64,000 nucleotides of DNA from Alphaproteobacteria bacterium. GTDB lineage: Bacteria > Pseudomonadota > Alphaproteobacteria > CAAHEQ01 > UBA3637. The translations under genes and the position numbers were made by a program. Shown in pieces: positions 9,768-43,868 of the stretch (positions are counted from its first letter, which is position 1; the number at the start of each line of letters is the position of its first letter). The stretch lies in the NCBI GenBank assembly GCA_015062245.1, contig SUVA01000003.1, positions 21,372 through 85,371 of the forward strand, in the 5' to 3' direction. The notes below the pieces were generated by a model that did not search any database, was not told the DNA's origin, and saw nothing but the letters and a program-made list of their open reading frames with translations.

Positions 9768-12700
9768 ATGTCTAAAACAAAGATGTTAGATGCAAACGAA
9801 GCCGCCGCTGCGGTGGCTTATAAGCTGAATGAAATGTCTATCATTTATCCGATTACCCCGTCTTCACCGATGGGTGAATGGGCCGATGCTTGGGCAGCCG
9901 GTAAGCAAACAAATATCTGGGGAAAAGTTCCGGAAGTATTGGAAATGCAATCTGAGGCCGGTGCTATTGGTGCCGTTCATGGTGCTTTGCAGGCTGGTTC
10001 TATGACCACAACATATACAGCTTCTCAGGGCTTGTTGTTGATGATTCCCAATATGTATAAAATTGCCGGTGAATTGATGCCGTTTGTGATGCATGTGGCC
10101 GCCCGTACAGTTGCCGGTCATGCTTTGTCCATCTTTGGTGATCATTCTGACGTGATGGCCTGTCGTCAAACAGGTTTTGCCATGTTGGCTTCCAATTCAG
10201 TTCAAGAAGCCCATGATATGGCTGCCGTGGCCCAAATGTCCACTTATTTATCACGCATTCCTTTTTTGCATTTCTTTGATGGTTTCCGTACATCTCATGA
10301 AATCAATAAAATCAATATGATGAGTGATGATGATTTGCGTGCTTTAATGGCCGATATCCCGACAGATTTTACCGGTAAAAACGCTTTGACACCGGATAAT
10401 CCTTCCGTACGTGGTACAGCTCAAAACCCGGATGTGTTCTTCCAAATTAAGGAAGCTGCCAATAAGTATTATCAAGCTTGCCCTGAAATTGTTGAAAAAT
10501 GTATGCGTAAGTTTGAACAAGTTATTGGTCGTTCTTATCATATTGTGGAATATTTTGGTGCACAAGATGCCGAACACGTTGTTGTGGCTATGGGTTCAGG
10601 TATTGAAACATTACAAGAAACAGTTAAAGCTTTGAATGCCAATGGTGGAAAATATGGTGTTGTGGCGGTTCGTTTGTATCGTCCTTTCCCATCCAAAGCT
10701 TTTGTGGATGCCTTGCCCGCTACTGTTAAATATATCACCGTTTTGGATAGAACAAAAGAAGCCGGCTCTGTTGGTGAACCGTTGTATTTGGATGTTGTTT
10801 CTGCATTGGCCGAAGCTGCTGTCAATGGTCATGTTATGCCAAAAGTTTTGGGCGGTCGTTATGGTATTTCTTCAAAAGAATTTACACCCGCAATGGCCAA
10901 GGCTGTTTTTGAAAACAAAGAAAAGAATCACTTTACCGTTGGTATCAATGATGACGTAACTCACGCATCTTTGGCTTATGATGCCACCTTTAATACAGAA
11001 GGTGATGATGTCAGCCGTTGTATTTTCTTTGGTTTGGGTTCCGATGGTACAGTGGGTGCCAATAAAAACTCAATCAAAATTATTGCAGATAATGATGATA
11101 CATATGGTCAGGCTTATTTCGTGTACGATTCCAAAAAATCAGGTGCGATGACAACATCTCACTTGCGTTTTGGTAAAAATCCGATTAAAGCCCCTTATTT
11201 AATTACATCTGCCAATTTTGTGGCCTGTCACCATGAACCATTCTTGCATAAGATTGATTTGTTGGCTGTTGCTGCCCCGAAATCAGTGTTTTTGTTGAAT
11301 ACACAAACACCCATTGAACACGTTTGGGATAGTTTGCCACAAGAAGTACAACAGGAAATCATTGCCAAAGAAATTAAGATGTATGCTATTGATGCTGTGG
11401 CCGTTGCCCAAAAAACAGGCATGGGTCGTCGTATCAATACAATTATGCAGGCTTGTTTCTTTGCTATTTCCGGTGTTTTACCCAAAGATGTGGCTATTGA
11501 AAAGATTAAAGCGGCCATTACGAAAACATATATGCGTAAAGGTCAGGAAGTTGTTGATGCCAATATCAAAGCGGTTGATGCCACTTTGGATCATTTGCAT
11601 GAAGTTCAAATCGGTCAAGCCAATTCAACCATTCGCCGTCAACCCGGTATTCCGGCTTATGCCCCTGAATTGTTGCAAAAAGTAACCGGTGCCATTATTG
11701 AAGGCCGTGGTGAAGAATTACCTGTCTCAGCCTTTGAATGGACAGTTGATGGTAAATGGCCAACCGATACGGCAAAATATGAAAAACGTCGTGTGGCAAC
11801 ACAAATTCCGTGCTGGGATCCTGAAACATGTATCCAATGTGGTAAATGTATTTCAGTGTGTCCGCATGCCGCTATCCGTGCCAAAGTGGCAAAAGCCGAA
11901 GCCTTAGCAAATGCACCGGCCGGCTTTAAGTCTGCTGATTACAAAACAGCTGAATTTAAAGGTGATAAGTTTGTGATTCAAGTGGCACCGGAAGATTGCA
12001 CAGGATGTACTTTGTGTACTCAGGTTTGTCCGATGAAGGCCAAAAACACATTGGTAATGGAACCGGTTGAAAAGAATTTGGATAAAGAAATCAAAAACTT
12101 TGATTTCTTTGAAAAATTGCCGGATGCCGATCGTTCAAAATTGAACACAAAGATGATTAAGAGCGTGGCCTTAATGCGTCCGTTGTTTGAATTCTCGGGT
12201 GCTTGTGCCGGTTGTGGTGAAACACCATATGTTAAAATGATGACACAATTGTTTGGTGATCGTTTGTTGGTTGCCAATGCCACAGGTTGTTCGTCTATTT
12301 ATGGTGGCAACTTGCCAACAACACCATATGCCAAAAACAAAGATGGACGTGGTCCGGCTTGGGCAAACTCTTTGTTTGAAGATAATGCTGAATTTGGTTT
12401 GGGTATGCGTACTTCCGTTGATTCCAAAACAGAATTTGCCATTCAATTGTTGTCTGAATTAAAAGACAGCATCGGTGTTGAATTGGTGGATGCCATTTTG
12501 AATGCTGACCAAACAACAGAACAGGGTATTGCCGAACAACGTGCCCGTGTTGCCTCTTTAAAAGAAAAATTGGCAGGTTTGTCTGGTGAAAAAGTTAAAT
12601 TACTTGTTGAACATGCCGATTACTTGGTCAAAAAATCCGTTTGGATTTTGGGCGGTGACGGTTGGGCCTATGATATCGGCTACGGTGGATTGGACCACGC

Positions 12701-13277
12701 CTTGTATTCAGGTAAAAACGTGAATATCATGGTGATGGATACGGAAGTGTATTCCAACACCGGCGGACAACGTTCCAAAGCCACACCGATTGGTGCCAGT
12801 GCCAAATTTGCCGTTTCGGGCAGTTCTTTGCCCCGTAAAGACTTGGGCGCTATTGCCATGAGTTCGGGTGAAGTTTATGTGGCCAGTATTGCCTTGGGTG
12901 CTAATGATATGCAGGCTTTGAAAGCTATGAATGAAGCTGAATCCTTTAACGGACCAAGTTTGATTATTGCTTACAGCCATTGTATCAACCATGGTTATGA
13001 TATCGGTAAAGATGGATTGAACCATCAACAAATGGCTGTCAAGTCAGGTTTGTGGCCTCTTTATCGCTTTGACCCGCGTTTGAAAGCAGAAGGTAAAAAT
13101 CCGTTCCAATTGGATTCTAAACCTTCCATTCCTGTGGCTGACTTTATGGCAACAGAAACACGCTTTAAGTATGTGAAACAACAAAACGCAGAAAATTACG
13201 AAAAGTTGTTGAAACAGGCTCAAGCGCAAGTGGATGAACGTTGGGCGTTCTATACAAAACTTGCCGAAGGCAAATAA
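9768..13277 (+). CDS. nifJ: Pyruvate:ferredoxin (flavodoxin) oxidoreductase, single-polypeptide type (1169 aa)
   Basis: Fused PFOR domains; two 4Fe-4S motifs (CIQCGKCISVCP, CTGCTLCTQVCP); TPP-binding GGDGWAYDIGYGGLDH; size typical of NifJ/PorA-type enzyme. Confidence 0.9.
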   Translation: MSKTKMLDANEAAAAVAYKLNEMSIIYPITPSSPMGEWADAWAAGKQTNIWGKVPEVLEMQSEAGAIGAVHGALQAGSMTTTYTASQGLLLMIPNMYKIAGELMPFVMHVAARTVAGHALSIFGDHSDVMACRQTGFAMLASNSVQEAHDMAAVAQMSTYLSRIPFLHFFDGFRTSHEINKINMMSDDDLRALMADIPTDFTGKNALTPDNPSVRGTAQNPDVFFQIKEAANKYYQACPEIVEKCMRKFEQVIGRSYHIVEYFGAQDAEHVVVAMGSGIETLQETVKALNANGGKYGVVAVRLYRPFPSKAFVDALPATVKYITVLDRTKEAGSVGEPLYLDVVSALAEAAVNGHVMPKVLGGRYGISSKEFTPAMAKAVFENKEKNHFTVGINDDVTHASLAYDATFNTEGDDVSRCIFFGLGSDGTVGANKNSIKIIADNDDTYGQAYFVYDSKKSGAMTTSHLRFGKNPIKAPYLITSANFVACHHEPFLHKIDLLAVAAPKSVFLLNTQTPIEHVWDSLPQEVQQEIIAKEIKMYAIDAVAVAQKTGMGRRINTIMQACFFAISGVLPKDVAIEKIKAAITKTYMRKGQEVVDANIKAVDATLDHLHEVQIGQANSTIRRQPGIPAYAPELLQKVTGAIIEGRGEELPVSAFEWTVDGKWPTDTAKYEKRRVATQIPCWDPETCIQCGKCISVCPHAAIRAKVAKAEALANAPAGFKSADYKTAEFKGDKFVIQVAPEDCTGCTLCTQVCPMKAKNTLVMEPVEKNLDKEIKNFDFFEKLPDADRSKLNTKMIKSVALMRPLFEFSGACAGCGETPYVKMMTQLFGDRLLVANATGCSSIYGGNLPTTPYAKNKDGRGPAWANSLFEDNAEFGLGMRTSVDSKTEFAIQLLSELKDSIGVELVDAILNADQTTEQGIAEQRARVASLKEKLAGLSGEKVKLLVEHADYLVKKSVWILGGDGWAYDIGYGGLDHALYSGKNVNIMVMDTEVYSNTGGQRSKATPIGASAKFAVSGSSLPRKDLGAIAMSSGEVYVASIALGANDMQALKAMNEAESFNGPSLIIAYSHCINHGYDIGKDGLNHQQMAVKSGLWPLYRFDPRLKAEGKNPFQLDSKPSIPVADFMATETRFKYVKQQNAENYEKLLKQAQAQVDERWAFYTKLAEGK

Positions 13278-13521: not shown

Positions 13522-14061
13522 CTAGATAATTTCCAATTTGATTTTATTATCTTCGTGCGTCCATTTTAGGGTGTGATTTTCTTGATTTAGCTGATGCATC
13601 AACCATTCTGCTTCTAATGTTTGAATGTCAGATGATGCCGGTGGATTATTTGATAAAATTTCAAGTATATTATTATTTAATATCAAATCGTTAGATAATA
13701 TAGTTAAAGTATTATCTGAATATAAAATTTCACCACCGGCCATGACAAATTGAAGTCCACAGGCGACCAAAGAAAGTTCTAATCGTGTATTAATTTCGCC
13801 TGAAAAAGAAATTTTTGGTCCCAATGTTTTTAAATAATCTAAAATCAGGCCCTTATCAATGGATTTTGTTTGTGTTCCGAACAATGCCCGATAATACTTT
13901 AATCTGGCCATCAGCATATCCGTATTTTGTTTTAACATTTGAGGGGCTTCATTGACAAAAGACGGATCTAAATTCATTAAATCAACCGTGCTGGATAGAG
14001 CTCCGATACCACCGGCTAAATCGTGTGAAAGTTTGACCGTTAAACACTCAGAAAAATTCAT
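13522..14061 (-). CDS. chpT: ChpT-like histidine phosphotransferase (CckA-ChpT-CtrA relay)
   Basis: N-terminal LTVKLSHDLAGGIGALSSTVDLMNLDP and later LMARLKYYRALFG parallel the ChpT/HPT motif (LCHDLISPxxAIxxGLELL ... FxRxAFG); start overlaps stop of upstream gene. Confidence 0.55.
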   Translation of the reverse strand: MNFSECLTVKLSHDLAGGIGALSSTVDLMNLDPSFVNEAPQMLKQNTDMLMARLKYYRALFGTQTKSIDKGLILDYLKTLGPKISFSGEINTRLELSLVACGLQFVMAGGEILYSDNTLTILSNDLILNNNILEILSNNPPASSDIQTLEAEWLMHQLNQENHTLKWTHEDNKIKLEII

Positions 14062-14951
14062 TGTTTTCCTTTCTTCTGTTTCATTGAATTGAAAATCTTT
14101 TGACCAATTTCATCAACATTTTCTATAAAATTGATATTGGCTTTTTCAAAGGCTAGTTTTTTTTGTTCAATGATATCCGAAAACAAAACGGATTCCATGC
14201 CAAGTAAAGGCCTTTTTGTGGAACGGTTTAAAAAACGCCCCGGTATGTAGGCAAATATCTTTTTATGTTTTTTTTGCGTTTTGATAAAATCGGCCAATTC
14301 TTGTTCCAATTGGCCATGTATTTGACCGATAATTAAAATAATTTCGGAAGTTTTATCCTTTAAAAGAGATTGAACAACGGGAACGAAAGTTGTCCCGATA
14401 AGATGATCTGTTCCCAAAGTAACACATTTTGAAACACCTAAACCCTGTTCATTTAATTGAGAAACAGCTTCATATATCAAAGAGGAGGAACGCCCGACAA
14501 TGGCAACTTTTCCGCTTTTAAATAAATGAGAGGGTAGAGTTCCGACTAAGGCTTGATCAACATTTAAAATACCGTTAGAGGATGGCCCCAAAAGTTGAAC
14601 CCCATTTTCTTTTGCAACCATTTTCATCTTTAATGCATCGTGCATGGGGACATGTTCAGTTGTGCAGATTATCAAAGGAATGCCGGCTTTCGCGGCCTGA
14701 ATAACGTCCTCTAATGCGTGGGCAGGGGTAGAAAAAATAACACTGATTTTAGGTGCGTATTTTTTTACAGCCTGTTTTACTTGATTAAAAACAGGAATTC
14801 CCATCAAATTGGTTAAATGACTTTCTTGACTGATACCTGCAACAACATTTGTTCCATATGCCAAAGCTTTTTCCAATTGATATAAGCCCATTTCACTGGT
14901 AACACCTTGAAAAATAACGGGGGTTTTTGAATTAGGAAAGCAAAACATCAA
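14058..14951 (-). CDS. Succinyl-CoA synthetase alpha (SucD)-like protein, apparently lacking the catalytic phosphohistidine
   Basis: Collinear with SucD (VIFQGVTSEMG, GISQ, IVGRSSSLIYEAV, LGTDH). At the position of the conserved KRMGHAGAII it reads KRPLLGMESVLF (no His). The CoA-contact Cys of GPNCPG is GPSSNG here. Confidence 0.6.
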   Translation of the reverse strand: MMFCFPNSKTPVIFQGVTSEMGLYQLEKALAYGTNVVAGISQESHLTNLMGIPVFNQVKQAVKKYAPKISVIFSTPAHALEDVIQAAKAGIPLIICTTEHVPMHDALKMKMVAKENGVQLLGPSSNGILNVDQALVGTLPSHLFKSGKVAIVGRSSSLIYEAVSQLNEQGLGVSKCVTLGTDHLIGTTFVPVVQSLLKDKTSEIILIIGQIHGQLEQELADFIKTQKKHKKIFAYIPGRFLNRSTKRPLLGMESVLFSDIIEQKKLAFEKANINFIENVDEIGQKIFNSMKQKKGKQ

Positions 14952-16087
14952 TATCCCTCCTTGGCTTGTTTAATAACCTCTTGAACGGCTAAATCTATTT
15001 GTGATGTATAATAAAAAGGAATAAGTGATTTTCGTAAAATGGCTTCGCCTTCCGTTGCATCCAAGCCCACCATTCGCACAACAATAGGAACGCCTATGGC
15101 GATTTCACCAGAGGCATCAACTAAGCCCTGTGCAATGTTTTTGCAACTGGTCAATCCGCCAAAGATGTTGACCAAAATGGCATCCACATCCGGTTCGGCC
15201 AAAGCCAATTTCAATGCGGTTGTGATGGATTTAATGGTTGGATTTGTTCCGACATCCAATAAACAAGCAACGGAAGCATTGTTTTTATGGATTAAATCAA
15301 CTGTGGCTAATCCCAGCCCGATTCCGTTACTTAAACAGGCAATGTTTCCGTTTAATTTCGTATATCTGAAAGCATTTTTCTTGGCTAATGCTTCCCGTTC
15401 ATGTCCTAATTTTGTTTCACGACATTGTTCCAATTCAGGAAAACGAAACAAAGAATCCGGATCAAAAACCAAACGACCGTTGACCACAATTAATTTTTCA
15501 TTTTTGCACACAACCGGACTTAATTCTATGGCCATAGCGTCATAAGATAAAAACAACTGAAATGCCTTATTTAAAATTGAAATAAATTGTTTTTTTATTC
15601 CGGCTTTTTTTAATTTTAATTTGTCACAGACTTTTTTGTAAAAATCGTTATTCAGTTTCAAATTTTCAATTTGCAAAGATAATATTTGAGAAGTATTTTG
15701 ACAGATGGAAAAAGTGATTCCTGGATTTTCAAAATCAACACGAAAAACCAAACGGCAAAAAGCATCCAATGTCGTGGCCTGTTCAATATAAAGGCGTTGT
15801 ATAGTGGAAGAAAAAACGGGGTTCGGTTCATGAAAAGATTCGCCTAAAATTAAAGTGGCGCTTTGTTCAACTTCCTGAGGTGTTGTGGCAAAAAATTTGT
15901 GTTGCAGTTCTTCATCAGTATAGGGTGGGGCAGAGGTCATCATTTGCGGTTTTAACCAAAAAGCATCGCCCCCCATTTGCTGGGCAACTTCTTTGGCCTC
16001 TTCTGGTGTATAGGTAATCTGACCGTCCAAAACAGGCAATCCTGCAGAACGAAAGATTTGCTTTACATAATATTCGTTTAATTCCAT
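14948..16087 (-). CDS. Succinyl-CoA synthetase beta (SucC)-like ATP-grasp protein with degenerate nucleotide-binding loop
   Basis: N-terminal MELNEYYVKQIF (cf. MNLHEYQAKQLF). C-terminal ligase-CoA motifs are conserved (NGNIACLSNGIGLGLATVDLI, ILVNIFGGLTSC). The GGRGKAGG ATP-binding loop is replaced by PQMMTSAPPY. Confidence 0.6.
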   Translation of the reverse strand: MELNEYYVKQIFRSAGLPVLDGQITYTPEEAKEVAQQMGGDAFWLKPQMMTSAPPYTDEELQHKFFATTPQEVEQSATLILGESFHEPNPVFSSTIQRLYIEQATTLDAFCRLVFRVDFENPGITFSICQNTSQILSLQIENLKLNNDFYKKVCDKLKLKKAGIKKQFISILNKAFQLFLSYDAMAIELSPVVCKNEKLIVVNGRLVFDPDSLFRFPELEQCRETKLGHEREALAKKNAFRYTKLNGNIACLSNGIGLGLATVDLIHKNNASVACLLDVGTNPTIKSITTALKLALAEPDVDAILVNIFGGLTSCKNIAQGLVDASGEIAIGVPIVVRMVGLDATEGEAILRKSLIPFYYTSQIDLAVQEVIKQAKEGY

Positions 16088-16137: not shown

Positions 16138-17004
16138 TTATTTATCACTTAATGATTTTAATTTTTGCCAAAAAGTTTTTGGTGGATTTTTTTGAATCAA
16201 GGATGATAAAAATTCAGGCAAAGCCTTTTCCAATTCGTTCATTTCATAAAAGGTTTGAACTTTTCCGTCTTGGATTAAAGAAACATCACCCGTTTCTTCG
16301 GATACAACCAAACATAAAGCATCTGTTGTTTCGCTTAAACCGATGGCTGCACGATGACGTGTGCCGTATTTCCAACTGAGAGTTGCATCTTTTGAAAGCG
16401 GAAGAATGACGCCGGCCTTGGCAATACGATTTTGGGAACAGACAACCGCTCCGTCATGCAAAGGAGTATTGACAAAAAACAAATTTATCAAAAGCTCTGT
16501 TGAAATTTTGGCATCTAATGAGATTCCGCCTGTGCAAACGGTATTGACGGGTTCCATTCTTTCAAAAGCAATTAAAGCGCCCGTTCTGTATTTTCGCCAA
16601 TAGGCAATGGATTGTATTAAGATGTTGACTAAGCTGTCGGATAATTGTTTTCGTTTTGCTTTTGTGAAAAAGGTTACCTGATTGCCCAATAATGACATTA
16701 ATCGTCTGAGTTCGGGCTGGAAAATAATAACAGCCGATAAAATCAACAATAAAATAAAGTTTCGCAGAAGTCCGGCTAAAATTCTTAAATGAAAGAGCAT
16801 GAAAAATTCACTGATCAACCATGTAAAAACCAAAAAGAAGAGCATTCCTTTAACTGTTTTTTCGGCCGGTGAGTTTTTAACAAAGCTTTTATAACAAAAC
16901 CATAAAAAGAAGACAATAATAAATAATTGCAACAAAAAGCTGACCCATGAGAGCCCGGTGTTTCCCAATAATTCTTGCAACTCTGTTTTTAATGTGCCAA
17001 TCAT
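16138..17004 (-). CDS. cdaA: Membrane diadenylate cyclase (c-di-AMP synthase) CdaA
   Basis: Three N-terminal TM helices then IIFQPELRRLM (matches B. subtilis CdaA IIFQPELRRAL). DAC domain motifs PLHDGAVVC, RIAKAGVILPLS, YGTRHRAAIGLSETTDALCLVVSEETGDVSL. Confidence 0.8.
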   Translation of the reverse strand: MIGTLKTELQELLGNTGLSWVSFLLQLFIIVFFLWFCYKSFVKNSPAEKTVKGMLFFLVFTWLISEFFMLFHLRILAGLLRNFILLLILSAVIIFQPELRRLMSLLGNQVTFFTKAKRKQLSDSLVNILIQSIAYWRKYRTGALIAFERMEPVNTVCTGGISLDAKISTELLINLFFVNTPLHDGAVVCSQNRIAKAGVILPLSKDATLSWKYGTRHRAAIGLSETTDALCLVVSEETGDVSLIQDGKVQTFYEMNELEKALPEFLSSLIQKNPPKTFWQKLKSLSDK

Positions 17005-17095
17005 AAAAATCCCCTTTCTTTTTGTATCGTAAATAAAAAGTATGAATAAGTCAAGAAAATATCTTGCAAAAATTAAAAAAATATGCTTATATTAA

Positions 17096-18217
<1,122 letters not shown>

Positions 18218-18728: not shown

Positions 18729-19919
18729 TTATGGATCCCGACAAATGGCGGAGTTGTTGAGGTAGCCACTGTAGCGAGAGTCGTCGAGGACAGCACCGCT
18801 GTTGTGGGAGACAAAACGCGTGCCACAGGAACCTGACTTGCTATTATCCGCTAGCCAAAGACTACCAGATTCTCCAAAGACATCTGTACTTCTAATCGCT
18901 ACATTTGTGGCCGAACAATCACTATCTGATCCGCCATTGCAAATACAAGGTTTCGTTGCGTAATTTGAGTGTGAACTGTTAAAATAACAGTGTGTATTCG
19001 TGCCACTGTCCGCCAGCCCTAAATCAGACATAGTCACAAGTTGTTTGCCATGCGCTTGACACAGGTTGGACGCACTCCACCAGTTCATTGTGCCTGAACT
19101 CTTATACACCGTTAAAGCACCACCGGGCAGGTTGAGGGTTTTGACCGTAAAATCATTTGTATCATCCAATTCTCCCTTATCCGTACACGTTCCCGTCCCC
19201 GGATTCGTACAACTACCATCACTGAACTTGCAGTATTTTGTCGTATCCACATTGCCTTCGGCATCCTTACAATCGCCGTTCTGGGTACACCCACTCGTTG
19301 GTTTGGCGCAGATGTATGTTGAGGTATTCGTCCCCTTTGCACAATACGTCCCTTCGGCGCAACATTCTGTCCCGCACATAAAGACACCGTTCGGACATTT
19401 GCATTCGCCGTGGAAACACTTTAGTCCGTCATCACATGTTACATTCTTACAGGCTGGGTCAAACTTTCCCCCTGTTGGGCTTTTTTCGCCTTCGGCCTCT
19501 GTGGTTGCCAAGTTTTTGTAATAAGTGATGGTAGCATTGCCTGATTCATCACAAACAACATCACGCACCATACCGCCTTTGGAATTTTTCATTTGTGTGC
19601 AAACATCTTTATCAATGCCCGATAGTGTTAAATTAAATTGAGTGCCGTTATCGGTAAGAGTGGTTGCATAGCCTGAGTTGGCAAAATCGGTGATTGTTGA
19701 TGGTAATTTCCCGTCATTGGTCATGGCATAAGCCGACACCGTTGTTGCCATCATGGATGCTTTATGCAAGGCCTCATTGGCTTTGTGTTTTTCCACCGCT
19801 TTGGAATAGGCCGATATGCCACCAACACTCAACACGCCCACAATGGCCAGCACGCCCAGCATTTCAACCATACTGCGCCCCTTTTGACTTCTTTTATCAT
19901 TTTTGTTTGTTTTATTCAT
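18729..19919 (-). CDS. Type IV pilin-like N-terminus fused to Cys-rich EGF-like repeats and a C-type-lectin-like C-terminal domain (396 aa); candidate adhesin
   Basis: Class-III signal-like N-terminus QKG|RSMVEMLGVLAIVGVLSVGGISAY with Glu at +5 and a hydrophobic helix; central CxxGxC repeats (CDDGLKCFHGECKCPNGVFMCGTECCAEGTYC); C-terminal WWSASNLCQAHGKQLVTMSDL resembles a CTLD start. Confidence 0.5.
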   Translation of the reverse strand: MNKTNKNDKRSQKGRSMVEMLGVLAIVGVLSVGGISAYSKAVEKHKANEALHKASMMATTVSAYAMTNDGKLPSTITDFANSGYATTLTDNGTQFNLTLSGIDKDVCTQMKNSKGGMVRDVVCDESGNATITYYKNLATTEAEGEKSPTGGKFDPACKNVTCDDGLKCFHGECKCPNGVFMCGTECCAEGTYCAKGTNTSTYICAKPTSGCTQNGDCKDAEGNVDTTKYCKFSDGSCTNPGTGTCTDKGELDDTNDFTVKTLNLPGGALTVYKSSGTMNWWSASNLCQAHGKQLVTMSDLGLADSGTNTHCYFNSSHSNYATKPCICNGGSDSDCSATNVAIRSTDVFGESGSLWLADNSKSGSCGTRFVSHNSGAVLDDSRYSGYLNNSAICRDP

Positions 19920-20619: not shown

Positions 20620-21108
20620 TTATTTTTCACGAAATGATAGCATAAAATCCAAATTTCTTTTTGTAATCCAAAAAGAAAAAAGTAATCCTAAGAATGAAAT
20701 AAGTGCATAATAGGAAGAGATAACTAAACATACTTTCCATTCTGTTGTGGAAAACAAAAAGGCAAAAATTATTGATAGTAAGCAGGTCATAATTGTCCAT
20801 GATAGAAAATTGAGTAAATTTTTCAATGGTCGATATTGTTCTTTTTTCCAGCCATCTTTGTATTCTGATTTTAAGTAATTGGTGTAATCTTCTTTATCAT
20901 ATAATTTTTCTTTCATATGTGGTATTAGGAAACTTTGCATTGTAAATAAGATGGAGGCAATAGCAAAATATGCAGAAATCCAACTTCCTGTTCCATTAGG
21001 ATCTTTTGGAACTAATGGAATGAGGGTCAATACAAAAGATAATTCCTTTACTTTGAAAGAAATAACCAAAGGAATAATAAAAGTAAATATTGTAAAAAAT
21101 ACCTTCAT
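20620..21108 (-). CDS. Small integral membrane protein (162 aa, ~4 TM), island cargo
   Basis: Four hydrophobic segments (FFTIFTFIIPLVISF, ISAYFAIASILFTMQSFLI, LSWTIMTCLLSIIFAFLF, LVISSYYALISFLGLLFSFWI); 3 nt downstream of the 292-aa gene. Confidence 0.5.
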   Translation of the reverse strand: MKVFFTIFTFIIPLVISFKVKELSFVLTLIPLVPKDPNGTGSWISAYFAIASILFTMQSFLIPHMKEKLYDKEDYTNYLKSEYKDGWKKEQYRPLKNLLNFLSWTIMTCLLSIIFAFLFSTTEWKVCLVISSYYALISFLGLLFSFWITKRNLDFMLSFREK

Positions 21109-21111
21109 TTT

Positions 21112-21990
21112 CTAAATAATCCCTAAATCTCTACAGATAACATTTGATTTTACAAAATCTAACATATGAACAATAGTTGGATGGGTACTTAACTCTTCTG
21201 TATTAAATTTTTTTAATTCCCGTGTTACGTCATCGTAATCATAAGATGTTAATGGCCTAAAAATATTGTCTAAATTTATAACTTCCCTTTCTCCTTCTTC
21301 ATTTTTCCCAACCACTTTCAATTTTTTAGTACCTAATTCTTTTAAGTCAAGAATTTTAGGGATTATATCAGATAAAGGAGCCTTCCTTTTAAAAATTATT
21401 TGTTTTTGTTCGGATTTTACAAAATCAGGAGTAAAAATAGAACGTTTTGTAGATTGCTCTAAATACGATATTGAAGTGATTGAAAAAAACCTATTCAATG
21501 CCATAGAAGCTTCTTCAGCCTTTATTATTTGGATGCAAGAAATCTTATTTTTTCTCTTAAAGCTCAGTGACGAGCTGTCGTAGCCTTTTAGTGAAACAAA
21601 ATCATCAAAAAACTTTCTTAAAATTTTTTCTAACACAGATAATGAAGCAGAATTAGCATATGTCAACCATATCCCTGATGTAGTATTTTTATTCAAAATG
21701 AAAAAGTTGTATTCCGCACCATCTTTGATTTCGGCTATTTCTGTAGAATATCCCCCATTAGGATTTACTACTACTCTGCAATGTGCTGAGTAGTCTCGAG
21801 AAGAAAAAAGTAGTCCGGCGTAATAAGAGGAGGAAGCAACTGGTTGAATAAAAAGATTTCTCTTTTTTTTACAGATATCAATTGGTCCTTCTTTTTGAGA
21901 AGTTATATAATCAAAAAGATCTGAAATGGAAAAATCGATATCTTTTTGCTTTTTTAAAATAATTTTAAAGGGATATGCGTTTATATTCAT
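21112..21990 (-). CDS. Hypothetical cytoplasmic protein (292 aa), island cargo, no recognisable domain
   Basis: Long ORF co-directional with and between the XRE gene and the membrane-protein gene; composition typical of the element (very AT-rich, Lys/Ser/Phe-rich). Confidence 0.45.
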   Translation of the reverse strand: MNINAYPFKIILKKQKDIDFSISDLFDYITSQKEGPIDICKKKRNLFIQPVASSSYYAGLLFSSRDYSAHCRVVVNPNGGYSTEIAEIKDGAEYNFFILNKNTTSGIWLTYANSASLSVLEKILRKFFDDFVSLKGYDSSSLSFKRKNKISCIQIIKAEEASMALNRFFSITSISYLEQSTKRSIFTPDFVKSEQKQIIFKRKAPLSDIIPKILDLKELGTKKLKVVGKNEEGEREVINLDNIFRPLTSYDYDDVTRELKKFNTEELSTHPTIVHMLDFVKSNVICRDLGII

Positions 21991-22050
21991 CTAAGACTCC
22001 AAAAAAAACTGTACTATTTATAGCAGAATTTTAAGAAAAAATCAAATTGT

Positions 22051-22389
22051 TTATTTCATTTCCAAAAGGGCCTCAATCTGTTTAAGGGCGGTTTTGAGTG
22101 TCTTTTCATCCTGTCCTTCTAATAATCGGGTAATAGTCTTTAATGTGTCTGAATGTGGTTTGTTCTGTGTGGATATATCAGTCAATAAATCTTGAACGGG
22201 GACATTGAGTGCGTTAGCAAAGGAAAGAAGTGTTGTAATTTTGGGGTCACTGAGTCCACGTTCTACATTTGAAATGGTATTTATCATTTTACCGGATACT
22301 TCGGCAAATTCCTCTTGTGAAAGTCTTTTTTGTTTGCGTAAAACGGCAATACGTTTACCAAGCGTTTGTAAAAATACTTTATTTGTCAT
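22051..22389 (-). CDS. XRE-family HTH transcriptional regulator (Cro/cI-like)
   Basis: LRKQKRLSQEEFAEVSGKMINTISNVERGLSDPKITTLLSFANALNVPVQDLL = classic HTH_XRE; start placed at MTNKVFLQ (the upstream in-frame extension lacks an RBS). Confidence 0.7.
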   Translation of the reverse strand: MTNKVFLQTLGKRIAVLRKQKRLSQEEFAEVSGKMINTISNVERGLSDPKITTLLSFANALNVPVQDLLTDISTQNKPHSDTLKTITRLLEGQDEKTLKTALKQIEALLEMK

Positions 22390-22465
22390 AATACCTCTTT
22401 TGTTATGGTAGTATTTTCCTATTTTGCTGTGTAAAAGACCATAACGGTAAAATGTGTATTTTGGC

Positions 22466-22494
22466 TTGACATTTCTAAAAATACATATTATACT
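22466..22494 (+). promoter_or_regulatory. Sigma70 promoter (TTGACA-17-TATACT) for the PD-(D/E)xK-like gene
   Basis: cttgacatttctaaaaatacatattatact read directly. Confidence 0.45.
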
Positions 22495-22519
22495 GTGTTT
22501 ATTGATTACAATAAACACA
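22494..22519. promoter_or_regulatory. Perfect 11-4-11 palindromic operator (TGTGTTTATTG-atta-CAATAAACACA) between -10 and RBS
   Basis: Exact inverted repeat read directly; positioned to block transcription; the divergent XRE repressor is the obvious candidate binder. Confidence 0.45.
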
Positions 22520-22531
22520 TGGGAGTATGAA

Positions 22532-23467
22532 ATGAACGGTCCAAACATCTTCGATTATGCTACCAGTGAGCTCTCTCAAGATGCTTTTTTGTGTTATCTG
22601 TTAGCCTTTGGAAAAGAAAAATATAAAATGGATTTTCCGAAAGAGTATATGCTTGCTCATAAGTTTCTTGCAAAATGTGGTATTGATGAAAAAGAGGAAA
22701 TATTGTCCGTTGGACAACAGGTGGAACATATTGATGTTTTAATTATTACAACTTCCCACATTCTTATTATTGAAGATAAAACTTATACTGATGAACATGA
22801 TGATCAAATAATTCGTTATGTGAAAAATATGAGGAAATCTGAAGAAAAATTTTTAAATGATAAAAAAATTAAGGTATGTTTTTTAAAAACAGGCGATTAT
22901 GTTAAATCCTATTCTTCAAGTGATGAAAGTGTTTTACAAAATAAAGATTGTTGTTCTTTAAGACGTAAAAATTTATTGGAATTACTAAAGGATTATTATA
23001 AGTGTAATTTAGTATTTGAAATGTTTTATAAACGACTTCTTTCCGTTGAAGAAGCTATAGAACAATGTGATAGTGAAAATATATTTGATTGGAATCGCTA
23101 TAAATGGTTCGATTTCCTTTATAATACTTTAATTGAGAAAAAGAAAGTTTTTGACATAAAATGGGTTCATAATCCTAATGGCGGTTTTTATGGTTGTTGG
23201 TTTGGTTCTCATAAACTAGGAGAAATTGAGAAGTATAAACAAATTGAAATTCATTTCAATGAAAAGGGAACAGAATTTGTAGATTTGTGCTTAAAATGTT
23301 CATCTGAAAGTAAAGAGAAAACTCAGAAATATAAATCAGATATGGAAAAGTGGCAAAAGGAATCTGGTTTTAATCGTCCTGATCGTTGGCGTATTGGTCG
23401 GACAACAACCTATGCCACAAAACAAGCAATCAATGTTCGGGATATTCAAAACTTTATCAAAAAATAA
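22532..23467 (+). CDS. PD-(D/E)xK nuclease-like protein (312 aa), island cargo
   Basis: E...D...E-x-K arrangement (SELSQDAF ... HIDVLIITTSHILIIEDKTY) with the hydrophobic-strand context typical of restriction-endonuclease-fold nucleases; GGGAG RBS 6 nt before the ATG. Confidence 0.4.
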   Translation: MNGPNIFDYATSELSQDAFLCYLLAFGKEKYKMDFPKEYMLAHKFLAKCGIDEKEEILSVGQQVEHIDVLIITTSHILIIEDKTYTDEHDDQIIRYVKNMRKSEEKFLNDKKIKVCFLKTGDYVKSYSSSDESVLQNKDCCSLRRKNLLELLKDYYKCNLVFEMFYKRLLSVEEAIEQCDSENIFDWNRYKWFDFLYNTLIEKKKVFDIKWVHNPNGGFYGCWFGSHKLGEIEKYKQIEIHFNEKGTEFVDLCLKCSSESKEKTQKYKSDMEKWQKESGFNRPDRWRIGRTTTYATKQAINVRDIQNFIKK

Positions 23468-23496
23468 CAACTGAAAGGAAAGGAAGATGGCAAAAG

Positions 23497-23616
23497 TATA
23501 TGTAACACAGTATGATTATCAAGCAGATTTAAAAGTTTATAAAGTACAAAATGACTATCAGGCAAAATGGCAAACAAGCAATCCTTTTATTAGTCGATTA
23601 GGATAATATAACTCAT
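23497..23616 (+). CDS. Small ORF (39 aa, MAKVYVTQYDYQADLKVYKVQNDYQAKWQTSNPFISRLG) with strong RBS
   Basis: aggaaaggaag RBS then ATG; below the ORF-track cutoff; followed by a terminator. Confidence 0.25.
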
Positions 23617-23652
23617 AATAAGGCATGTCTTTGACTTTGAAAAAAATTTTAA

Positions 23653-23688
23653 AGGATAGGGCGGAAAAACTCCGCCCTTTTTCTTTCT
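23653..23688. terminator. Bidirectional terminator (gggcggaaaaactccgccc flanked by T-runs) between convergent island genes
   Basis: Read directly. Confidence 0.45.
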
Positions 23689-25925: not shown

Positions 25926-25951
25926 TTTTTATCCTTTCATTTAGATTGAAT

Positions 25952-26365
25952 TTATTCTTCACAATTAAAAAGTCTATCCAAATAGCTACAAGCTGCTTCA
26001 ATGGTGTAATATACTTTTTTGTTTACACACACGTATTGGGAATGATCATCTCTTGTAATAACTCCTTCCAGCATAGAATCTTTATTTCGTAAAGTATTGC
26101 AATTTAGAAATCCGCAAACTTCACAGAATTTTGTTCTTGCGATTGTTTCACCATATGTCTTGATTTTTGCCTTTAATTTGTATAACAAATTTGGGCTGAT
26201 ATAATTTTTGATCATTTTAAAGACCTTTGTTTTTAGGTTATGGGGATCCCAGATTAAAACCACTGTTTTTCTGTTCCCACCTAAAAACGCAGCAAATCTT
26301 ATTTTCACCTTTTTATTTTTATTTATTTTATAAGTTTTTGATTTTAAATAATTATATCTAATCAT
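25952..26365 (-). CDS. Hypothetical Cys-containing protein (137 aa) between integrase and primase
   Basis: ORF only; CEVCGFLNC ... CVNKK ... C pattern suggests a zinc ribbon; start overlaps integrase stop. Confidence 0.35.
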   Translation of the reverse strand: MIRYNYLKSKTYKINKNKKVKIRFAAFLGGNRKTVVLIWDPHNLKTKVFKMIKNYISPNLLYKLKAKIKTYGETIARTKFCEVCGFLNCNTLRNKDSMLEGVITRDDHSQYVCVNKKVYYTIEAACSYLDRLFNCEE

Positions 26366-27542: not shown

Positions 27543-27769
27543 GTGTTTTTTTGTTTGACAAAATTATCCCATATTTAAGAGAGAAAAACACGTCACTCAA
27601 TGCGTCACTCAGCGTTTTTCGTAAGTAATACATAACAAGTTTGATAAATATTTTAGGACAGCTTAATTTTTTAATCCCTAAATACCCCCTAAATTTTTGA
27701 GAATACATTTTAAAAATCTTCAAAAATAAAGGAAAATAGGTTTGAGAGGATAAAAATAGATTTTTTACT

Positions 27770-27798
27770 TGACTTTTGGTAAAAAATCTGCGAAAATA
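27770..27798 (+). promoter_or_regulatory. Weaker promoter-like sequence (TTGACT-17-GAAAAT) driving the intact tRNA-His; sits inside the element side of the repeat
   Basis: acttgacttttggtaaaaaatctgcgaaaat read directly. Confidence 0.3.
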
Positions 27799-27815
27799 AG
27801 GCTTATCAACCAGAT

Positions 27816-27893
27816 GGCGGATGTAGCTCAGTTGGTTAGAGCGCTGGTTTGTGGTACCAGATGTCGTCGGTTCGAGTCCGATCTTCCGCCCCA
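27816..27893 (+). tRNA. tRNA-His (anticodon GTG) with G-1 and encoded CCA
   Basis: Cloverleaf folded by eye: G-1, acceptor GCGGATG/CTTCCGC, D-arm GTAGCTCAGTTGGTTAGAGC, anticodon loop TTGTGGT, T-arm GTCGG-TTCGAGT-CCGAT, discriminator C, CCA. Confidence 0.85.
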
Positions 27894-43100: not shown

Positions 43101-43178
43101 AAATAAAAAAACAAAAATCAATCACTAATTTTTATTGCTTTTTATAAAAAGTTAATATAAACTTAAAAAAAAGGATTT

Positions 43179-43868
43179 ATGATGCACATTTTAGTTATAG
43201 AAGATGACAAAATCACCAATCAAAACATCTGTCTTTTATTAAAAAAAGAAAAGATGATACCTGAATCTGCTTTTTGTGCCCATGACGGGTTAGAGTTGAT
43301 AAAGTTATATGATTACGATTTAATCTTACTTGACTTAATGTTACCGGATAGACCTGGTCTGGAAGTTTTGAAACAAATTCGCTTGCTGGGAATTAAAACA
43401 CCCGTTTTGGTGATATCCGGTTTACATCAAACGGAAAAGAAAGTGGATTGTTTAAATGCGGGGGCTGATGACTACCTGACTAAACCTTATGAACGAAGTG
43501 AGCTTTTAGCCCGTGTCAAGGCTTTAATTCGTCGCAGTTCAGGTTTGGCTGAATCAGTTATCAGAATCGGTAAAATGTCCATAGATATCAACAAAAAAAA
43601 TGTTTCTATTGATAATAAGACAATTCCCCTCACCCCGAAAGAGTATGCTTTAATAGAATTACTCGCTCTTAAAAAAGGGGTAACTGTCAGTAAAGAAACT
43701 TTCCTTAATCAGCTTTATGGTATTATGGATGAACCGCCTGACAGCAAAATCATAGATGTCTTTTTATGTAAAATGCGCCGCAAAATTAAAAAGGTTACAA
43801 ATGGCGAAGATTATATTCAAAATGTTTGGGGACACGGTTATATTTTAAAATCACCGGATAAAAAATAA
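43179..43868 (+). CDS. ctrA: OmpR-family response regulator, CtrA-like cell-cycle regulator
   Basis: MHILVIEDD ... DLILLDLMLPD ... receiver motifs; C-terminal winged helix; synteny with ihfA/MerR and presence of ChpT. Confidence 0.7.
   Translation: MMHILVIEDDKITNQNICLLLKKEKMIPESAFCAHDGLELIKLYDYDLILLDLMLPDRPGLEVLKQIRLLGIKTPVLVISGLHQTEKKVDCLNAGADDYLTKPYERSELLARVKALIRRSSGLAESVIRIGKMSIDINKKNVSIDNKTIPLTPKEYALIELLALKKGVTVSKETFLNQLYGIMDEPPDSKIIDVFLCKMRRKIKKVTNGEDYIQNVWGHGYILKSPDKK

What the first reader, a model, noticed from the sequence alone, without database searches (positions are those of the whole stretch)
16138..17004. Membrane-bound diadenylate cyclase (CdaA) in an alphaproteobacterial chromosome
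The protein has the three N-terminal TM helices, the IIFQPELRRLM linker and the DAC catalytic motifs (HDGAVV, GTRHRAAIGLSETTDALCLVVSEETG) of Firmicute-type CdaA. c-di-AMP signalling is well established in Firmicutes, Actinobacteria, Cyanobacteria and a few others. It is rare or unreported in Alphaproteobacteria. The surrounding genes (CtrA, ChpT, ihfA-MerR) clearly mark this genome as alphaproteobacterial. This is either horizontal acquisition or an undersampled lineage feature.
Basis: partly seen in the sequence, partly recalled or inferred. Interest (0 to 1): 0.7.

Follow-up and report, generated by a model that had tools for sequence, protein, structure and literature searches.

The report
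CdaA cyclase in gut Alphaproteobacteria lineage
The gene is a genuine, intact membrane-bound c-di-AMP synthase (CdaA) inherited within an uncultured gut/rumen lineage of Alphaproteobacteria, a class that reviews describe as lacking this signal; it is an ordinary enzyme in an unusual host, already labelled in GenBank.

Summary
Observation confirmed. The ORF at 16138-17004 (-) encodes 288 aa with three N-terminal hydrophobic helices and a DAC domain (Pfam E 3e-39). It passes the NCBIfam CdaA equivalog cutoff. All catalytic motifs are invariant across 34 relatives, and the model matches solved CdaA structures.

The host is alphaproteobacterial. The same contiguous window carries ctrA with a CtrA box, a ChpT homolog and ihfA-merR.

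The gene is not a recent import. About 75 protein clusters at 52-92% identity form one clade. Where named, they come from Alphaproteobacteria MAGs (one is labelled Pseudomonadota). Synteny is conserved down to 58% identity, divergence tracks the flanking genes, GC3 is typical of the core, and dN/dS is about 0.04-0.06.

The nearest outside relatives (48-49% identity) are lysA-linked CdaAs of gut Gastranaerophilaceae (Melainabacteria), not Firmicutes. No cdaR or glmM is adjacent. An old transfer into the lineage's ancestor is plausible but unproven.

The exact protein is already in GenBank (MBE6446082.1). A 2026 survey counted 6 CdaA-positive gut Proteobacteria. No phosphodiesterase, receptor or ydaO riboswitch was seen in the DNA available.

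Side finding: downstream lies a conserved sucC-like / sucD-like / chpT module in which the SucD-like protein lacks the catalytic histidine.

Verdict: new member of a known kind, moderate interest.

The parts
16138..17004 (-). cdaA: membrane-bound diadenylate cyclase, 288 aa
   Evidence: ORF. Pfam DAC E 3e-39 and NCBIfam TIGR00159 199.2 bits above the 188.8 cutoff. PDB full-length DAC 9g69_C E 7e-49. AF2 model vs solved CdaA: target-normalised TM 0.77-0.89 (mostly 0.83-0.89), rmsd mostly about 2 A.
16720..16953 (-). Region encoding the three N-terminal transmembrane helices (residues ~18-95)
   Evidence: Kyte-Doolittle segments. AF2 helices 2-42, 48-70 and 74-94. Pfam CdaA_N weak and below cutoff.
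16261..16608 (-). DAC catalytic domain (residues 133-248) with H183-D184-G185, T215-R216-H217-R218 and S235-E236-E237
   Evidence: Pfam envelope. These residues are invariant in 34 clade members. They align to the same motifs in solved CdaA structures.
17026..17054 (-). Sigma-70-like promoter candidate upstream of cdaA (TTGACT-17-TACGAT)
   Evidence: Consensus scan only. Sequence shown. Not evidence of function.
14948..16087 (-). sucC-like gene (379 aa), 50 bp downstream of cdaA; its ATP-grasp N-terminal part is strongly diverged
   Evidence: NCBIfam SucC 225.7 bits, below the 370 cutoff. In the PDB alignment the glycine-rich loop region is replaced. Synteny conserved.
14058..14951 (-). sucD-like gene (297 aa) lacking the catalytic phosphohistidine; overlaps sucC-like by 4 bp
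   Evidence: In the alignment to E. coli SucD, His246 of MGHAGA is Leu. The same holds across about 120 family clusters: 107 Leu, 0 His.
13522..14061 (-). chpT homolog (179 aa), overlaps sucD-like by 4 bp
   Evidence: NCBIfam ChpT E 3e-6. Family profile vs Brucella ChpT 4qpj_A E 4e-9 over the full length, then Caulobacter ChpT. hhalign probability 95.5%. Invariant SHDLAG..GA H-box.
17114..18217 (+). gapdh, divergently transcribed neighbour of cdaA; conserved synteny partner
   Evidence: Pfam Gp_dh_N/C. Same arrangement in L003, L004, L006, L007 and L012.
43179..43868 (+). ctrA (taxonomic marker for the host)
   Evidence: Best NCBIfam hit CtrA at 289 bits vs 177 for the next family. Brucella CtrA receiver domain 112.6 bits over 118 residues.
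43152..43166 (+). Full CtrA-box consensus TTAA-N7-TTAA, ending 12 nt upstream of the ctrA start codon
   Evidence: The window-wide count (5) is not above chance (mean 7.8); only the position is suggestive.

Best explanation
The gene encodes a functional CdaA-type diadenylate cyclase. Three N-terminal helices anchor it in the inner membrane. A short conserved linker (IIFQPELRRLM) connects them to a cytoplasmic DAC domain. By analogy with the solved Listeria, Bacillus and Staphylococcus enzymes, two DAC domains are expected to meet head-to-head, each holding one ATP and a divalent metal, and to condense 2 ATP into c-di-AMP plus 2 PPi.

The gene is a vertically inherited core gene of an uncultured, low-GC, gut/rumen-associated lineage of Alphaproteobacteria. 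It is not cargo of a mobile element. Its closest relatives outside that lineage are the lysA-linked CdaAs of gut Melainabacteria (Gastranaerophilaceae). The most likely history is therefore one old transfer of a cyanobacterial-type cdaA into the ancestor of this lineage, followed by vertical descent and rearrangement.

Shown here: identity, fold, conserved catalytic residues, purifying selection, host class, clade-wide presence and synteny. Inferred: enzymatic activity, direction and age of the transfer, and the physiological role. The role is presumably osmotic and potassium homeostasis or envelope homeostasis, as in other c-di-AMP producers.
For: Family and fold:
- Pfam and NCBIfam above cutoff.
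- PDB sequence hits to full-length and catalytic-domain CdaA.
- AF2 model (mean pLDDT 76.7) matches Listeria, Bacillus, Streptococcus and Staphylococcus CdaA at target-normalised TM 0.77-0.89 (mostly 0.83-0.89), rmsd mostly about 2 A, 40-46% identity.
- HDG, GTRHRAA and SEE..G are invariant in 34 clade sequences.

Selection: dN/dS is 0.036-0.061 against the two closest orthologs.

Host: ctrA plus CtrA box, ChpT and ihfA-merR lie on the same contiguous 64-kb window. NCBI labels the matching records as Alphaproteobacteria.

Lineage feature:
- About 75 clusters at 52-92% identity form one deep clade in an NJ tree.
- The exact protein was read on 23 contigs.
- gapdh<>cdaA-sucC'-sucD'-chpT is conserved at 100%, 64% and 58% CdaA identity.
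- CdaA identity (92/88/65/58%) tracks the flanking proteins.
- cdaA GC3 is 0.356, within the core range of about 0.27-0.39, whereas the genes of the nearby island are 0.22-0.28.

Outgroup:
- The best non-clade hits have lysA directly upstream.
- P0141, 91% identical to outgroup P0085, is named Candidatus Gastranaerophilaceae CdaA and is 48% identical to the query. It shares LSWKYGTRHRAAIG and SEETGDVS with the query.
- lysA-cdaA-uppS is described as a cyanobacterial hallmark (PMC5986932).
Against: - No enzymatic data exist, and the organisms are uncultured.
- No c-di-AMP phosphodiesterase, known receptor domain or ydaO riboswitch was found in the 64-kb window or in about 200 kb of related loci. 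This is a small part of a genome, so a complete pathway is unproven.
- The sister-group inference rests on best hits from a word-indexed search of a database rich in gut metagenomes, plus one NJ tree without reference phyla. Only one outgroup subcluster carries a taxon name, and another close cluster is labelled 'Clostridium sp.'.
- Identity to Firmicute catalytic domains (40-46%) is not much lower than to the Melainabacteria proteins (48-49%).
- The host's order or family was not determined here.
Confidence: 0.85

Rival explanations
1. Recent horizontal acquisition: cdaA arrived lately in this genome, for example from a Firmicute or on the adjacent integrative island.
For: An integrase / Prim-Pol island at about 20.6-27.5 kb, next to tRNA-His, lies only about 3.6 kb away. 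The class as a whole is reported to lack DACs.
Against: - cdaA lies outside the island and has core-like GC3 (0.356, against 0.22-0.28 for island genes).
- The same gapdh<>cdaA-sucC'-sucD'-chpT arrangement occurs in genomes whose CdaA is only 58-64% identical and which show no integrase or Prim-Pol genes in the ±10 kb examined.
- CdaA divergence matches the flanking genes.
- The nearest non-clade proteins are under 50% identical.
Confidence: 0.03
2. Assembly or binning artefact: a non-alphaproteobacterial cdaA was joined to alphaproteobacterial DNA.
For: Chimeras do occur at this very gene. Contig L098 (protein P0059) joins a Melainabacteria-like lysA and 5' half of cdaA to DNA 98.8% identical to this window, exactly at the conserved PLHDGA codons.
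Against: - The window's cdaA is uniform along its length.
- It is found with the same flanks on many independent contigs from JGI, ENA and NCBI samples (23 contigs read).
- It has orthologs in the same context in diverged relatives.
- It shows in-step divergence.
Confidence: 0.02
3. The protein is a DAC-fold relic that no longer makes c-di-AMP, being either a regulatory pseudoenzyme or a maker of a different nucleotide.
For: No phosphodiesterase, receptor or riboswitch was detected in the available DNA. The immediately adjacent SucC/SucD-like genes are themselves catalytically degenerate.
Against: Every residue known to be needed for catalysis in solved CdaA enzymes is invariant across the clade, with strong purifying selection. 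The NCBIfam equivalog score is above the trusted cutoff in the window protein and in two distant clade members.
Confidence: 0.05
4. Functional coupling (compatible with the main explanation): in this subclade cdaA is co-expressed with the His-less SucC'/SucD' pair and ChpT. c-di-AMP synthesis would then be wired to central-carbon status and the CckA-ChpT-CtrA cell-cycle phosphorelay.
For: - The order cdaA-sucC'-sucD'-chpT on the same strand is conserved over 58-100% CdaA identity, with cdaA-sucC' gaps of 13-52 bp and no predicted terminator between them.
- sucC'/sucD'/chpT overlap by 4 bp.
Against: - The sucC'-sucD'-chpT module exists without an adjacent cdaA in more distant relatives (L095-L097).
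- cdaA sits elsewhere in other clade members (L010, L011).
- A strong promoter-like site (11 of 12 matches) lies in the cdaA-sucC' gap.
- There is no evidence of any physical or regulatory interaction.
Confidence: 0.1

Closest known systems
CdaA/DacA of Firmicutes (Listeria monocytogenes, Bacillus subtilis, Staphylococcus aureus, Streptococcus; PDB 4rv7, 6hvl, 6huw, 6gyw, 8ofg)
   Same: Same architecture: three transmembrane helices plus a DAC domain. Same catalytic motifs. Same fold: target-normalised TM 0.77-0.89 (mostly 0.83-0.89), rmsd mostly about 2 A, 40-46% identity in the catalytic domain.
   Different: No cdaR (YbbR-domain) or glmM gene is adjacent here or in any related locus. The motif variants LSWKYGTRHR and SEETGDVS differ from the Firmicute ISKEFGTRHR and SEETGGIS. 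The host is a Gram-negative alphaproteobacterium.
Cyanobacterial-type CdaA, especially gut Gastranaerophilaceae / Melainabacteria (lysA-cdaA(-uppS) operon; Synechocystis Sll0505 class)
   Same: These are the highest-scoring non-alphaproteobacterial relatives: about 240 bits, 48-49% identity over the full length including the membrane part, with shared motif variants. They share the gut/rumen habitat.
   Different: The lysA-cdaA linkage that marks that group is absent in the window. Here cdaA lies between gapdh and sucC'-sucD'-chpT. The one contig showing both (L098) is a chimera.
DisA, CdaS, CdaM and DacZ (other diadenylate cyclase classes)
   Same: They share the DAC domain.
   Different: All score far below their NCBIfam cutoffs: DisA 45 vs 201, CdaS 135 vs 225, CdaM 101 vs 225, DacZ 17 vs 430. 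There is no DNA-binding, YojJ or pyruvate-kinase-like module.
Succinyl-CoA synthetase SucCD and ChpT of the CckA-ChpT-CtrA phosphorelay (for the downstream genes)
   Same: SucC' and SucD' align over their full length with SCS beta and alpha subunits. The 179-aa protein matches Brucella and Caulobacter ChpT.
   Different: SucD' has Leu in place of the phosphohistidine within a conserved PLLGM motif. SucC' lacks the glycine-rich loop. Both score well below the equivalog cutoffs. The ChpT is shorter than the solved ones (179 vs about 230-250 aa).

Membership tests
CdaA-type diadenylate cyclase | DAC (DisA_N) domain | tested here: met
   PF02457 E 3e-39, 133.7 bits against a cutoff of 27.
CdaA-type diadenylate cyclase | Full-length equivalog model (TIGR00159) above the trusted cutoff, scoring better than other DAC classes | tested here: met
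   199.2 bits against a cutoff of 188.8. CdaS, CdaM, DisA and DacZ are all far below their cutoffs. Clade members L010 and L011 score 201-202 bits.
CdaA-type diadenylate cyclase | Catalytic motifs DGA and RHR plus the T/S/E residues that bind ATP and metal | tested here: met
   H183-D184-G185, G214-T215-R216-H217-R218 and S235-E236-E237 are invariant in 34 sequences. They align to the same positions in solved CdaAs.
CdaA-type diadenylate cyclase | Three N-terminal transmembrane helices | tested here: met
   Three hydrophobic segments. Three long helices in the AF2 model. The Pfam CdaA_N match is only sub-threshold (20.8 vs 23.8 bits).
CdaA-type diadenylate cyclase | DAC fold | tested here: met
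   Foldseek vs PDB: the top 50 hits are all CdaA, DacA or DacM, E about 2e-15, target-normalised TM 0.77-0.89.
CdaA-type diadenylate cyclase | Synthesis of c-di-AMP from ATP | not testable with these tools
   Needs an enzyme assay or LC-MS.
Firmicute cdaA-cdaR-glmM module | Adjacent cdaR (YbbR domains) and glmM | tested here: not met
   No such genes were seen in the window, or within up to 10 kb (as far as each contig extends) in L003, L006, L010, L011 and L012.
Cyanobacterial lysA-cdaA-uppS module | lysA immediately upstream of cdaA | tested here: not met
   gapdh is the upstream, divergent neighbour. lysA-cdaA is present in outgroup loci L008, L013 and L014.
Complete c-di-AMP signalling system | Cognate phosphodiesterase (GdpP, DhhP, PgpH or AtaC) | tested here: inconclusive
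   No DHH/DHHA1 or 7TM-HD protein was found among the window ORFs scanned (about 60 likely genes of 120 aa or more, plus a few shorter ones) or among the called genes of the related loci. Only a small part of a genome was available.
Complete c-di-AMP signalling system | Receptors (RCK_C, PII-like DarA, KdpD, CBS) or the ydaO riboswitch | tested here: inconclusive
   No Rfam ydaO hit in the window or 12 loci. No receptor domains were seen in the window. The whole genome was not searchable.
Alphaproteobacteria (host) | CtrA-ChpT phosphorelay genes and class-typical synteny on the same DNA molecule | tested here: met
   CtrA is the best hit by 112 bits, with a CtrA box ending 12 nt upstream of ctrA. 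ChpT profile E 4e-9. ihfA-merR lies next to plsX. NCBI labels agree. A ribosomal-protein phylogeny was not possible.
Succinyl-CoA synthetase alpha subunit (for the neighbour at 14058-14951) | Catalytic phosphohistidine (E. coli His246 in MGHAGA) | tested here: not met
   Leu in the window protein and in 107 of about 121 family sequences, and never His. It is therefore not filed as a working SCS.

The most novel reading that the evidence does not exclude
c-di-AMP signalling operates in a whole lineage of gut Alphaproteobacteria. In the subclade represented here it would be built into an operon with a histidine-less, non-catalytic succinyl-CoA-synthetase-like heterodimer and the ChpT phosphotransferase. 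A cyanobacterial-type second messenger, acquired by transfer in the gut, would then have been wired to the alphaproteobacterial CtrA cell-cycle relay and to central-carbon status.
Probability: 0.1. Interest if true: 0.75.

Novelty: new member of a known kind. Interest (0 to 1): 0.4.

Why it matters
Reviews treat Alpha-, Beta- and Gammaproteobacteria as c-di-AMP-free (PMC10745434). The c-di-AMP field is built almost wholly on Firmicutes, Actinobacteria and Cyanobacteria. A conserved, selected CdaA across a diverse gut/rumen alphaproteobacterial lineage corrects that generalisation.

It also gives a natural case of a c-di-AMP cyclase in a cell that runs the CtrA/c-di-GMP cell-cycle circuitry, and a likely example of inter-phylum transfer of a signalling enzyme between gut residents (Melainabacteria and Alphaproteobacteria).

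Because c-di-AMP is sensed by host STING, it adds a Gram-negative group to the potential producers in the gut.

The practical weight is limited. The organisms are uncultured, the gene is already annotated in GenBank, the enzyme looks entirely conventional, and the rest of the pathway is unknown.

Tried and rejected
- Metagenome scan with the clade alignment.
- The fetch of an annotated region on the MAG accession: the record is not in those collections.
The single-sequence model was poor (pLDDT 43.5) and was not used for a fold search. A profile search against PDB sequences settled the ChpT assignment instead.
- Galperin 2023, 'All DACs in a row', is not held. The supplements of the 2026 UHGG survey are not held, so the six CdaA-positive gut Proteobacteria could not be named.
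- Rfam found no ydaO riboswitch in the window or 12 loci. This is uninformative rather than negative.
- A CtrA box was sought upstream of cdaA and none was found. Window-wide matches are not above chance.
- P0059 looked like a 60%-identity bridge between the Melainabacteria and alphaproteobacterial clades, carrying both lysA and sucC'. It was rejected as a chimeric contig joined at the HDGA codons.
- The idea that the sucC'-sucD'-chpT linkage is specific to cdaA was rejected, because the module occurs without an adjacent cdaA in L095-L097.
- Literature searches linking diadenylate cyclase to named alphaproteobacterial orders, or ChpT to succinyl-CoA synthetase, found nothing relevant.
Full report
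1. THE OBSERVATION

An ORF lies at exactly 16138-17004 on the minus strand (ATG start, 288 aa). It is preceded by a purine-rich ribosome-binding site and a sigma-70-like TTGACT-17-TACGAT.

Pfam finds the DAC domain at residues 133-248 (E 3e-39). The NCBIfam equivalog model for CdaA (TIGR00159) scores 199.2 bits against a curated cutoff of 188.8. CdaS, CdaM, DisA and DacZ all fall far below their cutoffs.

Hydropathy shows three hydrophobic segments at about 18-38, 52-72 and 74-95. The Pfam CdaA_N model matches only below its threshold.

Against solved structures the best match is a full-length diadenylate cyclase (9g69_C, E 7e-49, residues 23-250). It is followed by the catalytic domains of Streptococcus, Bacillus, Listeria and Staphylococcus CdaA/DacA at E about 1e-33 to 1e-37.

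An AlphaFold model built on 34 relatives (mean pLDDT 76.7) has three long N-terminal helices and an alpha/beta domain. That domain superposes on CdaA structures at target-normalised TM 0.77-0.89 (mostly 0.83-0.89), rmsd mostly about 2 A, and 40-46% identity.

2. IS THE ENZYME LIKELY TO WORK?

In an alignment of 34 clade members (52-88% identical to the window protein), several residues never vary: H183-D184-G185, G214-T215-R216-H217-R218-A-A, S235-E236-E237 and G239, plus the linker QPELRR. These are the DGA and RHR motifs and the Ser/Glu positions that hold ATP and metal in solved CdaAs (alignment; the mapping to the Listeria numbering is from my own knowledge).

Nei-Gojobori dN/dS against the two closest orthologs is 0.036 and 0.061. 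dS is about 1.2-1.5, near saturation, so the ratio is approximate.

I conclude that it is an active diadenylate cyclase under purifying selection. The activity itself is inferred.

3. WHOSE GENOME IS IT?

The same contiguous window carries several class markers:
- ctrA at 43179-43868. Its best NCBIfam hit is CtrA at 289 bits, against 177 bits for the next family, but below the 350-bit cutoff. The Brucella CtrA receiver domain is the best per-residue PDB hit.
- A full TTAA-N7-TTAA box ending 12 nt upstream of the ctrA start codon. The window-wide count is not above chance.
- A ChpT homolog (see section 6).
- ihfA-like and MerR-like ORFs beside plsX.
- DciA.

NCBI records holding the identical or near-identical protein are labelled 'MAG: Alphaproteobacteria bacterium'.

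The window is 30-43% GC and encodes a pyruvate:ferredoxin oxidoreductase. Matching contigs come from rumen and gut metagenomes. This fits the uncultured low-GC gut alphaproteobacterial groups (RF32 / Rs-D84 type in GTDB). That name is my recollection, not a test.

A ribosomal-protein phylogeny could not be run.

4. LINEAGE FEATURE OR IMPORT?

The word-indexed search of 5.8 billion proteins returns about 75 clusters at 52-92% identity, then a gap to 49% or less. In an NJ tree the first group is one deep clade. Where a source name exists, it is Alphaproteobacteria, or in one case Pseudomonadota.

Synteny is conserved. The exact protein was read on 23 contigs, and the places shown carry the same flanks. 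The arrangement gapdh<>cdaA-sucC'-sucD'-chpT recurs in genomes whose CdaA is 64% (L006, rumen) and 58% (L012) identical.

Divergence is in step with the neighbours:

| Locus | CdaA | SucC' | SucD' | ChpT |
|---|---|---|---|---|
| L002 | 92% | 92% | 86% | 84% |
| L001 | 88% | 94% | 87% | 84% |
| L006 | 65% | 53% | 62% | 45% |
| L012 | 58% | 57% | 62% | 61% |

Composition is also core-like. cdaA has GC3 0.356, inside the core range of about 0.27-0.39. The neighbouring integrase / Prim-Pol island at 20.6-27.5 kb next to tRNA-His has GC3 0.22-0.28 and is absent from the regions of L006 and L012 examined.

More distant clade members (54-57% identity, L010 and L011) carry cdaA in a different place. 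There it lies one or two genes from an EnvZ/OmpR-like two-component pair.

The gene is therefore old in this lineage, vertically inherited and occasionally relocated. Recent transfer and mis-binning are both excluded for practical purposes.

5. WHERE DID IT COME FROM?

The three outgroup loci I fetched (L008, L013, L014; CdaA 43-49% identical to the query) all have a diaminopimelate decarboxylase gene (lysA) directly upstream of cdaA. They sit in Gram-negative-looking contexts.

Searching with outgroup protein P0085 shows that a 91%-identical cluster seen on 613 contigs is named 'diadenylate cyclase CdaA [Candidatus Gastranaerophilaceae bacterium]'. These are gut Melainabacteria, the non-photosynthetic Cyanobacteria. 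One neighbouring cluster carries a 'Clostridium sp.' MAG label.

Agostoni et al. 2018 describe lysA-cdaA-uppS as conserved in, and unique to, Cyanobacteria (PMC5986932). The 2026 survey of human-gut genomes finds CdaA in 60 of 62 gut cyanobacterial species (PMC12901056).

The window protein and the Gastranaerophilaceae protein are 48% identical over 248 residues, including the membrane part. They share LSWKYGTRHRAAIG and SEETGDVS, where Firmicutes have ISKEFGTRHRAAIG and SEETGGIS.

So 'Firmicute-type' is not the best description. The closest known relatives are cyanobacterial-type CdaAs from organisms that share the habitat. One ancient transfer into the ancestor of the gut alphaproteobacterial lineage is the simplest history.

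This inference has limits. It rests on best hits and an unrooted NJ tree without reference phyla. The margin over Firmicute catalytic domains (40-46% identity) is modest.

A tempting 'missing link' turned out to be a chimera. P0059 on contig L098 is 60% identical to the query, with lysA upstream and sucC' downstream. From nucleotide 3066 onward the contig is 98.8% identical to this window. Before that point it is Melainabacteria-like. The junction sits on the PLHDGA codons. This is most likely a mis-assembly.

6. THE NEIGHBOURS

Downstream on the same strand lie a sucC-like gene (50-bp gap), a sucD-like gene and a 179-aa gene. The last two each overlap their predecessor by 4 bp.

The SucD-like protein aligns end to end with E. 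coli SucD, but the phosphohistidine of MGHAGA is Leu. Across about 120 family clusters the position is Leu in 107 and never His, within a conserved K-x-P-L-L-G-M motif. Where named, all of these clusters are from Alphaproteobacteria or Pseudomonadota MAGs.

The SucC-like protein lacks the glycine-rich loop of the ATP-grasp domain in the best PDB alignment. Both proteins score far below the equivalog cutoffs. They cannot be a conventional succinyl-CoA synthetase.

The 179-aa protein is a real ChpT homolog. It has an invariant SHDLAG..GA H-box. A six-sequence profile hits Brucella ChpT (4qpj_A) at E 4e-9 over the full length, and then Caulobacter ChpT. hhalign gives 95.5% probability.

The three-gene module occurs without an adjacent cdaA in more distant relatives (L095-L097). 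A strong promoter-like site lies in the cdaA-sucC' gap. The cdaA linkage is therefore subclade-specific and only weak evidence for a functional tie.

I found no paper linking ChpT to SCS-like proteins.

7. THE REST OF THE PATHWAY

No cdaR (YbbR) or glmM lies next to cdaA in any alphaproteobacterial locus. No DHH/DHHA1 or 7TM-HD phosphodiesterase and no RCK_C, DarA or KdpD-type receptor appeared among the window's ORFs or among the called genes of the related loci. No ydaO riboswitch was found in about 280 kb scanned.

This covers only a small part of a genome, so the result is inconclusive.

8. COMPARISON WITH WHAT IS KNOWN, AND NOVELTY

The protein meets every sequence and structure criterion for the CdaA family. 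It fails the operon criteria of both the Firmicute (cdaA-cdaR-glmM) and the cyanobacterial (lysA-cdaA-uppS) modules.

The literature describes Alpha-, Beta- and Gammaproteobacteria as lacking c-di-AMP signalling (PMC10745434; producer list in PMC10118264). [quoted passage not shown] The 2026 survey notes that Proteobacteria lack DACs 'with only a few exceptions' (6 species) and does not discuss them.

The identical protein and several relatives are already annotated in GenBank. This is a new (unstudied) member of a known enzyme family in an unexpected class. It is not a new kind of system.

9. VERDICT

Interest is moderate (0.4). It is a clear, well-supported exception to a textbook-level generalisation, with a plausible inter-phylum origin and an intriguing neighbourhood. 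But the enzyme is conventional, the gene is already annotated, and the lineage is uncultured with no pathway context yet.

The most novel reading not excluded is coupling of c-di-AMP to the His-less SucC'D'-ChpT module and the CtrA relay. I give it about 10%.

Noticed in passing
window 13522-16087 (-); also L003, L006, L012, L095, L096, L097: A conserved, translationally coupled module of sucC-like, sucD-like and chpT genes. The SucD-like protein lacks the catalytic phosphohistidine: Leu within a conserved PLLGM motif in about 120 clusters, never His. The SucC-like ATP-grasp loop is degenerate. The third gene is a bona fide ChpT homolog (PDB profile E 4e-9). This is a probable non-catalytic SCS-like pair tied to the CtrA phosphorelay, and no literature on it was found.
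   Followed up: yes
L098 (contig LIUQ22-1 scaffold_7982), protein P0059: A chimeric contig. Nucleotides 1-3065 are Melainabacteria-like (pilin-like gene, lysA, 5' half of cdaA). Nucleotides 3066-4754 are 98.8% identical to window 16470-14782. The join is at the PLHDGA codons. This is probably a mis-assembly, and it distorts trees if P0059 is included.
   Followed up: yes
L010 5761-10855; L011 10001-14432: In the more distant CdaA subclade (54-57% identity), cdaA lies one or two genes from an EnvZ/OmpR-like two-component pair. The best NCBIfam hits are the osmolarity regulator OmpR and the sensor EnvZ, both below cutoff. A conserved ~155-aa unknown protein and glycosyltransferases are also nearby. 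This is suggestive, given c-di-AMP's osmotic role.
   Followed up: partly
window 20620-27893: A low-GC (about 0.30) integrative island next to tRNA-His (27817-27893). It carries a tyrosine integrase, a Prim-Pol/DUF3987 primase-helicase, a PD-(D/E)XK nuclease, an HTH regulator and unknowns. It is present in L003 and absent from the regions of L006 and L012 examined. It is unrelated to cdaA.
   Followed up: partly
window 17114-18217 vs L012 8790-9863: GAPDH is 92% identical between the window and L012, while the adjacent CdaA, SucC', SucD' and ChpT are only 57-62% identical. L006 has a different, 335-aa GAPDH (54% identical). This points to gene replacement or transfer of gapdh within the lineage.
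   Followed up: no
window 465-5405 (+): A 1646-aa protein whose only recognisable part is a block of ankyrin repeats (residues ~637-727). Ankyrin proteins also occur in L096 and L097. This is a eukaryote-like feature often seen in host-associated bacteria.
   Followed up: no
window 18729-19919 (-) and 7094-7993 (-): Cysteine-rich proteins without family matches. The 396-aa one begins with a weak prepilin N-methylation-type motif and a hydrophobic helix. L006 has a 374-aa EGF-like counterpart in the same neighbourhood.
   Followed up: no
window 43152-43166 (+): A perfect CtrA-box consensus, TTAATATAAACTTAA, ending 12 nt upstream of the ctrA start codon. This is consistent with ctrA autoregulation. 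The motif count over the whole window is not above chance.
   Followed up: partly
window 9768-13277 (+): A single-chain 1169-aa pyruvate:ferredoxin/flavodoxin oxidoreductase in an alphaproteobacterium, next to the degenerate SCS-like genes. It points to an anaerobic, fermentative lifestyle for this lineage.
   Followed up: no
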